Notes: generated by a model not told the origin, from the letters alone. DNA of 64,000 nucleotides from Candidatus Woesearchaeota archaeon (GCA_016784165.1 JADHVD010000004.1:11624-75623); one strand, 5' to 3'; shown: positions 12,915 through 14,753, counted from the stretch's first letter. Numbers and translations are program-made.

Positions 12915-14753
12915 ATGAATTTCTTTAACCAAAAAAAAGCCTTCATGGGACTCTCTCTATCTCAACTGGTGGGCATAATATTAGTTATATTAATCTTTAT
13001 ACCTTTTACAGGATTATTCGCAAGAACCTTCAACACTTTTTTTGGAGGGGGAAAGCCATCAATAGAAAATTTTGATTCATTAACAGAAAAAGTTCAAGAA
13101 CTCCTTCTAAGCCCTGACAGAATAGCAATAGAAACGAATTACCCTTATTTCATAAAAGATAATGATTATGTAATAGTCGCTTTTGACCATGAATGGCATG
13201 GTGGTGGGACAGATAAAACAGAAGATACCACCCCATATGGCCCATTTGAAGCAAATCTTTGCCATGATGAAGGTATAAGAAGACCTCTAGAATGTTTAGA
13301 AAAATCATGCATGTGCATTTATGAAGATACAGCAGGAGATGATTTCATGGAAGGGGGAGATCCCTCACCAATTAAATGTGTTCCTTTTGGAAATAATATT
13401 TTCTTTTCAGGGGCAGAAGGATATCCAGATTATTTAAAAGATAAAGATGGGGTAAATGACGGCTACAAAAAAGAATTCATCAAAACAAAAATCAATTTTA
13501 ACAAAAACTTAACAGAATTAGATTACGAGTTTTTTGTAATATATGGAGAATGCTGGAATTCAGGTTGCAAAGTTTATGAAAACAACGATTGCAAGGATGA
13601 ATTTGACGAATTTGATGCAAGAAACCTCTATATAGAAAAATATTACGACTTAGACAGTCATAAAACACATATACTTATAGCAGTCCAAGAAGGAAATATA
13701 AATGAAAGAGCAAACGACGCACAAAAATTGATAGAAGAATTAAGAAAAGCAGAACAAATGATTGTCGTTTCACCAATTTCTGGAATGCAGGTAACAGGCC
13801 CACCAACAATATCTAATGAAACCATAAAAAGAATACTTGACGATGCAGGTTCTCCCGCAGCCTTAGCTTATCAAGCATTTTATGATCTGGGTGTCCAATA
13901 TGGAATAGACCCAGTTTATGCACTTGCATTTTTCAGACAAGAATCTACTTATGGGACCGCATCAGGTTGGGCAGGAAACTCAGCAAATTGCCCACCAAAT
14001 AGTTCTAAGAATATTGGAAATATAAAATACACTCAAAGTTGCAAAGACAATTATGGTGGAACAAACTGTAAGGGATTTTGCCATTATCCAACATGGAAAA
14101 AAGGAATAGAGGCATGGTATTCTTTAATTAGAAATAGTAACCACTATGTTGCTGGGGGGAAAGATACTATTGCAGAAATACTCCCAGTATATGCACCATC
14201 AACAGATAATAATAATGTCCCAGAATATATTTCAGCAGTATCAGATTCTTTAATTTATTATAGGGGATTAGAACCCAATAGGGAATTAACATTAACCACC
14301 ATAGATAAAAATAAAGTTTCTTGTACTGGACAATGTAAATTGACTCAAGAAGCATATCTTAAATTAATTGAAGCAAATAATCCAGCAAAAGAAAGCGGAA
14401 GGGAGTTACACGTTTATTCTTCTTATAGGTCATTACAACAACAAATAGATATATGGGAATCAAGTAATCACCCCTTATCTGAAAGAGGAACATATATTTG
14501 TAACCCTTACCCAGAAGATACAGCACCAACAAGATGTCCACACCTCACAGGTGGTGCAGTAGATTTAAGATTCAAAGATAAATCCTTTGATTCAATGAGC
14601 GCATCAGATTGGCAACAATTAGAAGATGTAATGTATCAAGCAGGTTGGGTGAGGTATGAAAATGAAGTATGGCATTTTGAATACAACACTAATAGGTGGG
14701 CAAGAGCAGATACAAATAATGATGGATTCCCAAATCAACCATCCTTAGTATAA
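12915..14753 (+). CDS. Pilin-like-anchored bifunctional peptidoglycan hydrolase: lysozyme-like (GH73/FlgJ- or SLT-type) domain plus VanY/peptidase M15 (LAS) domain
   Basis: N-terminus NQKKAF|MGLSLSQLVGIILVILIFIPF. Around aa 300-450: GIDPVYALAFFRQESTYGT...NIGNIKY...YPTWKKGIEAWYSLI. Around aa 475-595: HVYSSYRSLQQQ, CPHLTGGAVDL (HxxGxAxD) and EVWHFEY (ExWH). Confidence 0.8.
   Translation: MNFFNQKKAFMGLSLSQLVGIILVILIFIPFTGLFARTFNTFFGGGKPSIENFDSLTEKVQELLLSPDRIAIETNYPYFIKDNDYVIVAFDHEWHGGGTDKTEDTTPYGPFEANLCHDEGIRRPLECLEKSCMCIYEDTAGDDFMEGGDPSPIKCVPFGNNIFFSGAEGYPDYLKDKDGVNDGYKKEFIKTKINFNKNLTELDYEFFVIYGECWNSGCKVYENNDCKDEFDEFDARNLYIEKYYDLDSHKTHILIAVQEGNINERANDAQKLIEELRKAEQMIVVSPISGMQVTGPPTISNETIKRILDDAGSPAALAYQAFYDLGVQYGIDPVYALAFFRQESTYGTASGWAGNSANCPPNSSKNIGNIKYTQSCKDNYGGTNCKGFCHYPTWKKGIEAWYSLIRNSNHYVAGGKDTIAEILPVYAPSTDNNNVPEYISAVSDSLIYYRGLEPNRELTLTTIDKNKVSCTGQCKLTQEAYLKLIEANNPAKESGRELHVYSSYRSLQQQIDIWESSNHPLSERGTYICNPYPEDTAPTRCPHLTGGAVDLRFKDKSFDSMSASDWQQLEDVMYQAGWVRYENEVWHFEYNTNRWARADTNNDGFPNQPSLV

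What the first reader, a model, noticed from the sequence alone, without database searches (positions are those of the whole stretch)
12915..14753. Archaeal pilin-anchored fusion of a lysozyme-like domain and a VanY/M15 LAS peptidase (bacterial murein hydrolases)
Seen in the sequence: a 612-aa protein has a pilin-like N-terminus (NQKKAF|MGLSLSQLVGIILVILIF). The region at roughly nt 13812-14265 reads GIDPVYALAFFRQESTYGT...NIGNIKY...YPTWKKGIEAWYSLI. This is a Glu-containing pattern like GH73/FlgJ glucosaminidases or SLT transglycosylases. The region at roughly nt 14340-14700 carries SYRSLQQQ, HLTGGAVD (HxxGxAxD) and EVWH (ExxH).

Established knowledge: the last three motifs are the metal-binding and catalytic signature of VanY/D-Ala-D-Ala carboxypeptidase-type LAS (peptidase M15) enzymes, which cut peptidoglycan stem peptides.

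Inference: the surrounding genome is archaeal and should not make murein, so a glycan-cleaving plus peptide-cleaving enzyme displayed on a pilin-like anchor points to bacterial cell walls as the target. That could mean attachment to or penetration of a bacterial partner, predation or competition. It is not the self-wall remodelling role that FlgJ or VirB1 play in bacterial machines.
Basis: partly seen in the sequence, partly recalled or inferred. Interest (0 to 1): 0.88.

Follow-up and report, generated by a model that had tools for sequence, protein, structure and literature searches.

The report
Surface-anchored archaeal enzyme cutting bacterial walls
A tiny marine archaeon (Woesearchaeota) encodes a surface-anchored protein with two different enzymes for cutting bacterial cell wall; the general idea is already published, but the protein belongs to an undescribed family in which one 'carrier' module bears interchangeable wall-cutting heads inside a conserved operon.

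Summary
ORF 12915-14753 (+) encodes 612 aa: a K-K-A motif plus one hydrophobic helix, an unassigned ~260-aa Cys-containing domain, a GH73 N-acetylglucosaminidase domain (Glu343) and an M15/LAS zinc peptidase domain (His543, Asp550, Glu584-x-x-His587). Profiles, homologues, orthologue conservation and fold search support both enzymes. The contig is archaeal (RadA, RPA, PCNA, Cdc6, intron-bearing tRNA), and the gene order recurs in five other loci, so it is not a chimera.

New here: the N-terminal domain defines a family of 63 cluster representatives. Apart from TPR repeats and one weak pilin-model hit, its only recognisable partners are murein hydrolases: GH73, SLT, M15, M23, NlpC/P60 and Amidase_5. 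The gene sits in an 18-gene run of proteins with the same N-terminus, collinear across Woesearchaeota lineages.

Caveats: 'pilin' rests on a motif only. No pilin profile, pilin fold match or pilus machinery was found. The adjacent Amidase_3 lacks one zinc ligand.

That Woesearchaeota carry murein hydrolases aimed at bacteria is already published (2021, 2022, 2025), and NCBI names this protein as glucosaminidase-containing. Verdict: a new variant of a known kind, of moderate interest.

The parts
12915..14753 (+). Whole gene: 612-aa surface-anchored bifunctional murein hydrolase (the stop codon is included)
   Evidence: ORF list. An identical protein is in the public collections, named 'glucosaminidase domain-containing protein [Candidatus Woesearchaeota archaeon]' (MBL7050820.1).
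12915..13028 (+). N-terminus, aa 1-38: MNFFNQKKA|F followed by one hydrophobic helix. This is a class III (prepilin-type) signal-like motif, or a plain signal-anchor.
   Evidence: Hydropathy. The upstream 10 codons are conserved with synonymous changes in the orthologue. 56 of 61 complete family members have [KR][GAS] before the helix. No pilin or class III profile matches.
13029..13811 (+). Carrier domain, aa 39-299: a lineage-specific beta-rich domain with four near-invariant Cys (C127, C132, C134, C155). No Pfam family and no solved-fold match.
   Evidence: 63 cluster representatives at E<=1e-3 among 1.84 billion. Alignments A1 and A5. AlphaFold model pLDDT 80.4, pTM 0.75. Foldseek against PDB and BFVD gives nothing below E 0.1.
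13812..14279 (+). GH73 endo-beta-N-acetylglucosaminidase domain, aa 300-455. Glu343 is the candidate general acid. Motifs: ALAFFRQESTYGT, GN(I)K, W..GI..WY, VYAPSTD..N..EY.
   Evidence: Pfam PF01832 at E 2.8e-4, below the cut-off. Homologues reach E 4e-42. Glu343 is kept in 74 of 88 domains, and the 14 Asp cases are all second copies in tandem proteins. Model pLDDT is above 90 over most of the domain. Foldseek probability 1.00 to AtlE, LytB, Auto, FlgJ, Atl and SagB.
14280..14336 (+). Linker, aa 456-474, containing Cys470 and Cys474
   Evidence: Model segment with pLDDT below 50. Cys positions.
14337..14708 (+). LAS / MEROPS M15 zinc peptidase domain, aa 475-598. S-x-Y-R505; His543 and Asp550 (H-x6-D) plus His587 are the candidate Zn ligands; Glu584 lies in E-x-x-H.
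   Evidence: Pfam VanY at 29.9 bits, above GA 25. All of these residues are invariant in three orthologues down to 35% identity. The profile matches LdcB, VanX and VanXY in PDB and 904 M15 proteins. Foldseek probability 1.00 to Ply500, LysB4, VanX, VanY, LdcB and ChiX.
14796..15845 (+). Adjacent gene: 349-aa protein with the same KKRG plus helix N-terminus and an Amidase_3 (N-acetylmuramoyl-L-alanine amidase) domain at aa 168-344. The first Zn-ligand His is replaced by Lys, so it may be degenerate.
   Evidence: Pfam PF01520 at E 4.4e-19, 69.6 bits. NCBIfam CwlD at E 1.2e-12, below the cut-off. Alignment to CwlD 7rag and 4rn7 shows GHGG replaced by GKDY. Orthologue alignment.
5168..18921 (+). 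Operon-like run of 18 consecutive genes, all with a [KR][KR][AGS] plus hydrophobic-helix N-terminus. The hydrolase fusion and the amidase are embedded in it.
   Evidence: Motif scan: 18 of 18 genes here against 4 of 51 elsewhere in the window, Fisher p = 4e-13. The block is collinear in L001, L002, L003, L004 and L005, always upstream of RPA and RadA where the locus reaches them.
8691..10689 (+). Two paralogous operon genes (366 and 292 aa) with the pilin-like N-terminus, a Cys motif and a C-terminal glycine-zipper hydrophobic region. They are candidate membrane-inserting components.
   Evidence: Sequences. Weak ApoL hit at E 6.3e-5, below the cut-off. Orthologues in L003, L004 and L005.

Best explanation
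The gene encodes an extracellular, cell-tethered, bifunctional murein hydrolase of a marine Woesearchaeales (DPANN) archaeon.

Shown here:
- An N-terminal K-K-A motif and a single hydrophobic helix.
- A conserved ~260-aa Cys-containing 'carrier' domain of unknown fold.
- A GH73 domain, which in its family cuts the GlcNAc-MurNAc glycan bond (Glu343).
- An M15/LAS zinc peptidase domain, which in its family cuts D-Ala-containing or L-Ala-D-Glu bonds of the stem peptide (His543, Asp550, His587, Glu584).

Inferred:
- The helix keeps the protein on the archaeal surface, either as a processed class III signal protein presented like a minor pilin or bindosome subunit, or as a simple signal-anchor.
- The two heads locally digest the sacculus of a bacterium that the archaeon touches.
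- The gene works within a conserved 18-gene operon of similarly anchored proteins: small Cys-rich pilin-like proteins, glycine-zipper proteins and an Amidase_3-like protein.
- Orthologous carriers in sister lineages bear other murein hydrolases instead, so selection acts on 'cut murein', not on one particular bond.
- The most likely role is contact-dependent opening of a bacterial host or prey wall.

My probabilities: about 0.8 for 'surface-exposed active murein hydrolase acting on bacterial peptidoglycan', and about 0.5 for the contact-dependent host or prey role.
For: - Domain identity.
- Catalytic residues: Glu343 in 74 of 88 GH73 domains; the LAS ligands are invariant in orthologues at 62% and 35% domain identity.
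- Extracellular topology: one N-terminal helix only, 16 Cys, and four near-invariant Cys in the carrier domain.
- Archaeal host and no chimera: RadA (Rad51 E 1e-82) and RPA, PCNA, Cdc6, a 134-nt intron-bearing tRNA, and the same gene order on independent ENA, NCBI, Logan and GTDB contigs.
- Head swapping on the same carrier at the same operon position: SLT+VanY in L003 and TPR+NlpC/P60 in L004. Elsewhere in the family: M23, Amidase_5 and TPR+GH73. Across 64 members, the only non-TPR Pfam domains are murein hydrolases, apart from one weak T4SS_pilin hit.
- Further murein enzymes in the operons: Amidase_3 next door and a 720-aa SLT protein in L004.
- No murein or pseudomurein synthesis genes in the window.
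- Literature: archaeal PGHs kill bacteria, and Nanoarchaeota are rich in them (PMC12352652). Woesearchaeota murein hydrolases have been proposed to target bacterial hosts (PMC8204110; PMC9723730).
Against: - No enzymatic, localisation or host evidence exists.
- The query's own Pfam Glucosaminidase score is below the curated cut-off.
- 'Pilin-like' is supported by a motif only.
- No prepilin peptidase or pilus machinery is in the window.
- The neighbouring Amidase_3 has Lys in place of a Zn-ligand His, and its distant orthologues have lost more. Parts of the system may therefore bind rather than cut.
- Several family members, including L005, have no enzyme head at all, so the carrier and the operon have a function that does not require hydrolysis.
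- The M15 domain's nearest sequence relatives are D-Ala-D-Ala dipeptidase/LdcB-type enzymes, which also fits nutrient salvage.
- Only 64 kb of the genome was seen.
Confidence: 0.6

Rival explanations
1. A weapon for competition, not symbiosis. The hydrolase, shed or surface-bound, kills neighbouring bacteria, as the secreted PGHs of Halogranum do, without any stable host association.
For: Archaeal PGHs with M23 and Glucosaminidase domains kill bacteria experimentally (PMC12352652). Rapid head swapping resembles the arms-race turnover those authors describe.
Against: The protein keeps an N-terminal hydrophobic helix and has no wall-binding domain. It is embedded in a vertically inherited operon next to RPA and RadA, not on a plasmid or small contig. 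DPANN genomes are generally host-dependent.
Confidence: 0.2
2. Nutrient scavenging. The enzymes digest free peptidoglycan debris or dead sacculi at the cell surface to release amino sugars and D-Ala or other amino acids for uptake.
For: The M15 domain is closest in sequence to D-Ala-D-Ala dipeptidase/LdcB-type enzymes. Woesearchaeota are described as recyclers of cellular compounds (PMC9723730). Surface tethering keeps the products near the cell.
Against: The operon and the window contain no transporter and no amino-sugar or D-amino-acid catabolic gene. The operon is dominated by pilin-like and membrane-inserting-looking proteins, not by catabolic genes.
Confidence: 0.15
3. A binding-only adhesin. 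The hydrolase folds are kept as murein-recognition modules for attachment, with little or no catalysis.
For: The adjacent Amidase_3 has lost a Zn-ligand His and its distant orthologues have lost more. Head-less carriers exist. The second GH73 copies in the tandem bacterial relatives have Glu replaced by Asp.
Against: In the fusion itself every catalytic and metal residue checked is intact and conserved in the orthologues.
Confidence: 0.07
4. Self-envelope remodelling. The archaeon makes a murein-like or pseudomurein wall, or needs to open its own envelope for appendage assembly, as FlgJ and VirB1 do in bacteria.
For: In bacteria, PG hydrolases are commonly encoded within appendage operons (established knowledge).
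Against: No Mur ligase, MraY or PBP-type genes are in the window. GH73, Amidase_3 and M15 target features absent from pseudomurein, namely the beta-1,4 GlcNAc-MurNAc bond, MurNAc-L-Ala and D-Ala (established knowledge). The PGH survey found almost no PGHs in pseudomurein-producing archaea.
Confidence: 0.03
5. An assembly chimera or bacterial contamination inside an archaeal bin.
For: Both enzyme domains have mostly bacterial relatives.
Against: The same gene order (pilin-like genes, fusion, amidase, RPA, RadA) occurs on independently assembled contigs from ENA, NCBI and Logan, and the first part of it on a GTDB contig. GC content is uniform at about 0.30-0.34 across the region. The N-terminal carrier domain is shared with genes that lack any bacterial-type domain.
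Confidence: 0.01

Closest known systems
Modular archaeal peptidoglycan hydrolases (Woldo, M23, and Danwoldo, Glucosaminidase, of Halogranum salarium; survey of 3,706 archaeal genomes; Strock et al. 2025, PMC12352652)
   Same: They are archaeal and exported, carry bacterial-type murein hydrolase domains including PF01832, show domain shuffling, and are presumed to target bacteria. Nanoarchaeota/Woesearchaeales are prominent in that survey. A genome with the same accession series as this protein (GCA_016784165.1, MBL7050651.1, LysM+SLT) is listed.
   Different: Those proteins have Sec or Tat signals and a recognised wall-binding domain (LysM, PG_binding_1, SH3). This one has none, so it falls outside the survey's definition. 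It has two catalytic heads, a prepilin-like N-terminus and an uncharacterised carrier domain, and it sits in a conserved chromosomal operon rather than on plasmids or small contigs.
[quoted passage not shown] 2021, PMC8204110; GH23 in 'vampiristic' Woesearchaeota, Vigneron et al. 2022, PMC9723730)
   Same: Same phylum-level lineage and the same proposed role: binding or degrading bacterial walls, possibly those of bacterial hosts. An SLT head and a separate SLT protein occur in the sister operons.
   Different: Those are giant proteins (up to 3,000 aa) with a single SLT/GH23 domain. Here a 612-aa protein combines GH73 and M15. The carrier-domain family and its operon are not mentioned in the passages I read.
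Bifunctional bacterial autolysins and phage endolysins (S. aureus Atl amidase+GH73, pneumococcal LytB, Listeria Auto, Ply500 and LysB4 M15 endopeptidases)
   Same: The catalytic folds match (Foldseek probability 1.00), and one polypeptide combines a glycan-cutting and a peptide-cutting module.
   Different: Those enzymes act on the producer's own wall or on the phage's host from within, and use choline-binding, LysM, SH3 or GW targeting domains. This one is made by an organism that, on my knowledge, is not expected to make murein, and none of its synthesis genes is in the window. It is held by an N-terminal helix. Sequence identity to any bacterial relative is at most about 50% for GH73 and 37% for M15.
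Class III signal peptide proteins that are not pilins (the Sulfolobus sugar-binding proteins of the 'bindosome'; Szabo and Pohlschroder 2012, PMC3387779)
   Same: A functional extracellular protein carries a prepilin-type N-terminus, possibly for display in a pilus-like surface assembly. The [KR]-[GA] motif before a hydrophobic helix is shared.
   Different: Processing by a prepilin peptidase and dependence on pilus assembly genes are shown for the bindosome but are untested here. No peptidase or ATPase gene is in the window, and no class III profile matches.
M15 LAS peptidases LdcB/YodJ, VanY, VanX and VanXY
   Same: They share the S-x-Y-R, H-x6-D and E-x-x-H motifs, the fold and the Zn-ligand pattern.
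   Different: This is a C-terminal domain of a multidomain surface protein, not a stand-alone enzyme. Scores are far below the NCBIfam equivalog cut-offs (36 against 176 bits), and bond specificity is unknown.

Membership tests
GH73 / Pfam PF01832 Glucosaminidase | Profile match at or above the curated gathering score | tested here: not met
   22.0 bits against a cut-off of 30.2, E 2.8e-4. Membership is supported transitively instead: the region matches 64 proteins at E 4e-42 to 2e-8, many of which carry PF01832.
GH73 / Pfam PF01832 Glucosaminidase | Conserved catalytic general-acid Glu in the E-S-x-x-G motif, plus the conserved Tyr of the Y-A-x-x-D motif | tested here: met
   Glu343 is present, and conserved in 74 of 88 homologous domains. 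Ser344 and Gly368 are 100% conserved and Tyr426 is 99% conserved. The assignment of these residues as catalytic comes from my knowledge of FlgJ, Auto and AtlE, not from a test here.
GH73 / Pfam PF01832 Glucosaminidase | Lysozyme-like alpha/beta GH73 fold | tested here: met
   The AlphaFold model of aa 290-612 has pLDDT above 90 over most of the domain. Foldseek probability 1.00 to AtlE 4pi9, LytB 7pj3, Auto 3fi7, FlgJ 2zyc and 5dn4, and TM0633 4qdn (TM-score normalised to the target, TMt, 0.67).
GH73 / Pfam PF01832 Glucosaminidase | Endo-beta-N-acetylglucosaminidase activity on peptidoglycan | not testable with these tools
   Needs a zymogram or muropeptide analysis.
LAS / MEROPS M15 (Pfam PF02557 VanY) | Profile match at or above the curated gathering score | tested here: met
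   29.9 bits against a cut-off of 25, E 5.4e-7, aa 475-590. The profile of three orthologues retrieves 904 M15 proteins.
LAS / MEROPS M15 (Pfam PF02557 VanY) | Zn ligands H-x6-D and a distal His; catalytic Glu in E-x-x-H; substrate Arg in S-x-Y-R | tested here: met
   His543, Asp550, His587, Glu584 and Arg505 are all present and invariant in orthologues at 62% and 35% identity. They align with the LdcB motifs SGYRS, EHQTGLAMD and EPWH.
LAS / MEROPS M15 (Pfam PF02557 VanY) | LAS fold | tested here: met
   Foldseek probability 1.00 to Ply500 2vo9 (E 6.7e-4), LysB4, VanX 1r44, VanYB 6a6a, LdcB 4jid and 4ox3, and ChiX. One loop of the model (residues 230-253) has low confidence.
LAS / MEROPS M15 (Pfam PF02557 VanY) | D,D-carboxypeptidase specificity (what defines VanY proper) | not testable with these tools
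   Sequence relatives are LdcB, VanX and VanXY. The best structural match is an L-Ala-D-Glu endopeptidase. The bond that is cut remains open.
Archaeal type IV pilin / class III signal peptide proteins | K/R at -2 and G/A/S at -1, followed by a hydrophobic helix at the extreme N-terminus | tested here: met
   K8-A9|F10 followed by a helix. Conserved in the orthologue with synonymous changes. Present in 56 of 61 family members and in 18 of 18 consecutive operon genes. The rule itself is recalled from the literature; PMC3387779 was read for context.
Archaeal type IV pilin / class III signal peptide proteins | Match to curated class III signal or archaeal pilin/flagellin N-terminal profiles | tested here: not met
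   No such Pfam model matches at E<=10 on 10 N-termini, and no NCBIfam model at E<=1.
Archaeal type IV pilin / class III signal peptide proteins | Genomic association with a prepilin peptidase and a pilus assembly ATPase or platform | tested here: not met
   None in the 64-kb window or in the flanks of L001-L005. The rest of the genome was not available.
Archaeal type IV pilin / class III signal peptide proteins | Pilin fold (N-terminal helix packed on a beta-sheet) and assembly into a filament | tested here: inconclusive
   The model shows a long helix (15-43), a second helix and a 9-strand beta core, but Foldseek finds no pilin or any other fold at E below 0.1. Assembly cannot be tested.
Modular archaeal PGH as defined by Strock et al. 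2025 | At least one catalytic Pfam domain AND at least one cell-wall-binding Pfam domain | tested here: not met
   Catalytic domains are present, but there is no LysM, SH3, PG_binding, SPOR or similar domain. The definition was read. The protein is absent from their supplementary files as held, two of which were cut when stored.
Amidase_3 (neighbouring gene 14796-15845) | Profile match above the cut-off and a complete Zn site (His, Glu, His) with a catalytic Glu | tested here: inconclusive
   The profile criterion is met (69.6 bits against 27). However, the first ligand His of the GHGG motif is Lys here and in L001, Ala in L004, and the motif is lost in L003 and L005. The Glu, the second His and the catalytic Glu are kept here. 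The assignment of these residues as ligands is from my own knowledge.

The most novel reading that the evidence does not exclude
The 18-gene block 5168-18921 is a dedicated Woesearchaeal surface organelle for breaching bacterial envelopes. It would be a pilus- or bindosome-like assembly of small Cys-rich pilin-like subunits that displays carrier-domain 'minor pilins' tipped with interchangeable murein hydrolases, together with glycine-zipper proteins that insert into the target membrane. This would be an archaeal counterpart of the type IV pilus-based episymbiosis of Saccharibacteria, and the first defined molecular machine for an archaeon-on-bacterium lifestyle.
Probability: 0.3. Interest if true: 0.8.

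Novelty: new variant of a known kind. Interest (0 to 1): 0.5.

Why it matters
Whether any DPANN archaea live on or prey on bacteria is an open question. Published evidence for it consists mainly of isolated murein hydrolase genes. This locus gives that question a concrete, conserved and testable object:

- A vertically inherited operon whose central protein keeps one carrier module while exchanging non-homologous wall-cutting heads. That pattern is hard to explain unless bacterial peptidoglycan is the selected target.
- A family of archaeal PGHs that domain-architecture surveys miss, because the family lacks known wall-binding domains.
- Compact two-headed hydrolases that could be tested as antibacterial enzymes.

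Tried and rejected
- A single-sequence search with the LAS domain through the word index found nothing, not even the protein itself. The three-sequence profile worked.
A degenerate motif scan returned only one genome, another Woesearchaeota MAG, so the taxonomic breadth of the family is poorly sampled.
- Pfam and NCBIfam found no class III signal or pilin model on the N-termini.
- The carrier-domain model matched no fold in PDB or in the viral library, so I could not assign it a wall-binding or pilin fold.
- My by-eye reading of M15A-like tails in P0143/P0124 and in the 'archaeon' GH73 protein P0052 was not supported by PDB sequence searches with the P0143 and P0052 tails. I dropped it.
- The GH73 tree is neighbour-joining without support values. 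The query clade sits inside a family whose named members are Chloroflexota. Its sister proteins (P0027, P0052) lie in loci with RelA/SpoT-type genes, so I could not tell whether they are bacterial or archaeal. The donor of the domain is unresolved.
- I considered a provirus or mobile-element origin and rejected it, because the locus is syntenic next to RPA and RadA in several lineages.
- The DPANN review PMC6349945 contains nothing on cell walls or peptidoglycan.
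Full report
**1. The observation**

The + strand ORF at 12915..14753 encodes 612 aa. 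The protein has one hydrophobic segment, at about aa 8-40, and 16 cysteines.

- Pfam places aa 475-590 in VanY (PF02557, E 5.4e-7, 29.9 bits, above the gathering score of 25).
- Pfam places aa 320-413 in Glucosaminidase (PF01832, E 2.8e-4, 22.0 bits, below the gathering score of 30.2).
- NCBIfam's best match is a D-Ala-D-Ala dipeptidase model, far below its equivalog cut-off.
- The only PDB sequence match of the single protein is LdcB/YodJ, at E 0.047.

**2. The glycosidase domain**

A search of 5.8 billion protein clusters found 66 proteins. Two are full length: the protein itself, and P0002 at 74% identity. The other 64 match only aa ~296-455, at E 4e-42 to 2e-8. Many of these carry PF01832, and the named ones are mostly Chloroflexota (Dictyobacter, Ktedonobacteraceae, Chloroflexia).

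- In an alignment of 88 such domains, Glu343 is Glu in 74. The 14 Asp cases are all the second copy of tandem-domain proteins. Ser344 and Gly368 are invariant, and Trp401 and Tyr426 are 99% conserved.
- An AlphaFold model of aa 290-612 (pLDDT 76.7 overall, above 90 over most of this domain) matches GH73 structures at Foldseek probability 1.00: AtlE, LytB, Auto, FlgJ, Atl and SagB.

The domain is GH73, not SLT.

**3. The peptidase domain**

- Orthologues at 62% and 35% domain identity keep S-x-Y-R505, P-His543-x-T-G-G-A-V-Asp550 and Glu584-x-W-His587-F-E-Y unchanged.
- A profile of the three sequences matches LdcB (E 3e-4), VanX and VanXY in PDB.
- The same profile matches 904 M15 metallopeptidases in the large collection, at 25-37% identity for those listed.
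- The model matches Ply500, LysB4, VanX, VanY, LdcB and ChiX at probability 1.00.

Membership of the LAS/M15 family is solid. Which peptide bond is cut is not determined.

**4. Archaeal and not chimeric**

- The window encodes RadA (Rad51, E 1e-82), RPA and ribosomal protein S2, PCNA and RNase J, Cdc6/Orc1, RadB and a 134-nt intron-containing tRNA.
- GC content is even, about 0.30-0.34 around the gene.
- NCBI holds the same protein as MBL7050820.1 and MBC8444223.1, named 'glucosaminidase domain-containing protein [Candidatus Woesearchaeota archaeon]'.
- The 74%-identical orthologue lies on independent ENA and NCBI contigs with the same neighbours: a 160-aa gene, the fusion, Amidase_3, two further genes, RPA, YdjM and RadA.
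- The supplementary table of Strock et al. lists GCA_016784165.1 (Nanoarchaeota; Woesearchaeales; family BS150m-G63; marine) with MBL7050651.1. That accession is in the same series as this protein. That the two are the same genome is my inference.

**5. The unassigned N-terminal domain and its family (new here)**

An exhaustive HMMER search with aa 39-299 found 63 cluster representatives at E<=1e-3, of which 15 are at E<=1e-10. In nearly all of them the match starts about 35-70 residues from the N-terminus. 56 of the 61 complete members have [KR][GAS] (G 31, A 23, S 2) before an N-terminal helix.

Short members (220-340 aa) are the domain alone. Long members add TPR repeats and/or enzymes:

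| Member | C-terminal domains |
|---|---|
| P0092 | SLT (E 1e-12) + VanY/M15 |
| P0089, P0134 | Peptidase_M23 |
| P0119 | TPR + NlpC/P60 (E 6e-16) |
| P0121 | TPR + Glucosaminidase (E 1.6e-21), a very different GH73 lineage (distance 0.95) |
| P0087 | Amidase_5 |

Scanning all 64 members, the only non-TPR Pfam families seen are murein hydrolases, apart from one weak T4SS_pilin hit. The domain has four near-invariant Cys. It models with pLDDT 80.4 and pTM 0.75 as two helices plus a beta core. It matches nothing in PDB or in the viral structure library.

**6. The operon**

Eighteen consecutive + strand genes (5168..18921) all begin with [KR][KR][AGS] plus a hydrophobic helix, against 4 of the other 51 ORFs (Fisher p = 4e-13).

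- The gene after the fusion is an Amidase_3 protein (E 4.4e-19).
- The block is collinear in two more distant lineages, with RadA 68-77% and RPA 53-67% identical. The carrier at the same position bears SLT+VanY in L003 and TPR+NlpC/P60 in L004.
- L004 also has the Amidase_3 neighbour, and the orthologue of window gene 18058..18921 there carries an SLT domain.
- A further Woesearchaeota MAG (L005) has the same operon with a head-less carrier.

The locus is therefore vertically inherited, and the enzyme heads are exchanged.

**7. Caveats found**

- No Pfam or NCBIfam class III signal or pilin profile matches the N-termini. No prepilin peptidase, assembly ATPase or platform gene is in the window. 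'Pilin-anchored' is a motif-level statement, and a plain signal-anchor remains possible.
- The KKA motif exists only with the 612-aa start. NCBI's 602-aa model starts at Met11. The orthologue conserves M-D-FFNQKKAF with three synonymous differences, which supports the longer start.
- In the Amidase_3 neighbour, the His of the 'GHGG' zinc-ligand motif of CwlD and 4rn7 is Lys. It is Lys in L001 and Ala in L004, and the L003 and L005 copies lack the second His too. The catalytic Glu is invariant. This amidase may be degenerate.
- Head-less carriers show that the operon has a function beyond hydrolysis.

**8. Mechanism**

Shown:
- A single N-terminal helix followed by Cys-rich domains.
- Two intact murein hydrolase catalytic centres, both under conservation.
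- Operon embedding.
- Head swapping restricted to murein hydrolases.

From established knowledge: GH73, Amidase_3 and M15 enzymes act on the beta-1,4 GlcNAc-MurNAc bond, the MurNAc-L-Ala bond and D-Ala-containing (or L-Ala-D-Glu) bonds. These bonds are features of bacterial murein and are absent from pseudomurein. [quoted passage not shown]

Inferred: the protein is displayed on the archaeal surface and locally digests the wall of a bacterium in contact, most likely to attach to or gain access to a host or prey cell.

Rivals are a diffusible or contact weapon for competition, scavenging of peptidoglycan debris, a non-catalytic adhesin, and self-remodelling. The last is the least likely, because no wall synthesis genes are nearby.

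**9. Comparison with what is known**

- Archaeal PGHs that kill bacteria are demonstrated, and about 5% of archaeal genomes have modular PGHs, with Nanoarchaeota prominent (PMC12352652).
- Woesearchaeota and Pacearchaeota murein-like transglycosylases have been proposed to target bacterial hosts (PMC8204110; PMC9723730; PMC10936187).
- The 2025 survey required a wall-binding Pfam domain. It lists mostly LysM+SLT, plus one LysM+Peptidase_M15, for the Woesearchaeales entries I read. This protein's accession does not appear in its supplementary files as held.
- In four literature searches I found no description of the carrier-domain family, its head swapping or the 18-gene operon. That is an absence in a limited library, not proof of novelty.

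**10. Verdict**

The added value is the carrier family with interchangeable heads and the conserved operon. I classify it as a new variant of a known kind, with interest 0.5.

Noticed in passing
window 5168-18921 (+): Eighteen consecutive genes all start with [KR][KR][AGS] plus a hydrophobic helix, against 4 of the other 51 ORFs in the window. Almost none has a Pfam family. The block is collinear in four other loci from related lineages.
   Followed up: yes
window 8691-9791 and 9811-10689 (+): Two paralogous proteins have the pilin-like N-terminus, a conserved Cys motif and a C-terminal glycine-zipper hydrophobic region (for example GGWIAVGVGAGGIALAVLG). One gives a weak ApoL hit (E 6e-5, below the cut-off). 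Orthologues occur in L003, L004 and L005. They may insert into membranes or form pores.
   Followed up: partly
window 7961-8218, 8252-8548, 11807-12130, 12163-12393 (+): Four small proteins (76-107 aa) have the same N-terminus and a short Cys-rich C-terminal domain. They are mutually similar and conserved in L003 and L004. They are candidates for the major subunits of a filament, if there is one.
   Followed up: partly
window 14796-15845 (+): The Amidase_3 neighbour has Lys where CwlD-type enzymes have the first Zn-ligand His ('GHGG' becomes 'GKDY'). Distant orthologues have lost more of the site while keeping the catalytic Glu. It may be a degenerate amidase.
   Followed up: yes
window 12915-12944: Public gene models disagree on the start. 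NCBI's is 602 aa, from Met11, and other callers give 612 aa. The shorter model removes the KKA motif. Synonymous changes in the orthologue support the longer one.
   Followed up: yes
L004 14567-16729; window 18058-18921: The last gene of the operon is 287 aa here with no recognisable domain. Its N-terminal homologue in L004 is 720 aa and carries an SLT lytic transglycosylase domain, so hydrolase heads also come and go on a second operon protein.
   Followed up: partly
window 14-1771 and 1832-5137 (+); L006 3992-9406: Large surface proteins lie just upstream of the operon (Glucodextran_B/Ig-like; a 1101-aa protein with a weak TSP3 repeat hit). The unrelated loci of the GH73 sister proteins P0027 and P0052 also place a ~1800-aa Glucodextran_B protein just upstream of their GH73 gene.
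   Followed up: no
window 38701-38834 (-): A 134-nt tRNA match (Rfam 37.2 bits) that ARAGORN missed. Its length implies an intron, which fits an archaeal genome.
   Followed up: no
window 54981-56632 (-) and 59953-61626 (+): Three more ORFs with the same KK[AG]/KRG plus helix N-terminus lie outside the main block. None has a Pfam family.
   Followed up: no
proteins P0003-P0010 (Ktedonobacteraceae-type relatives): The closest GH73 relatives by E-value carry two tandem GH73 domains. In every case the second copy has Asp in place of the catalytic Glu.
   Followed up: partly
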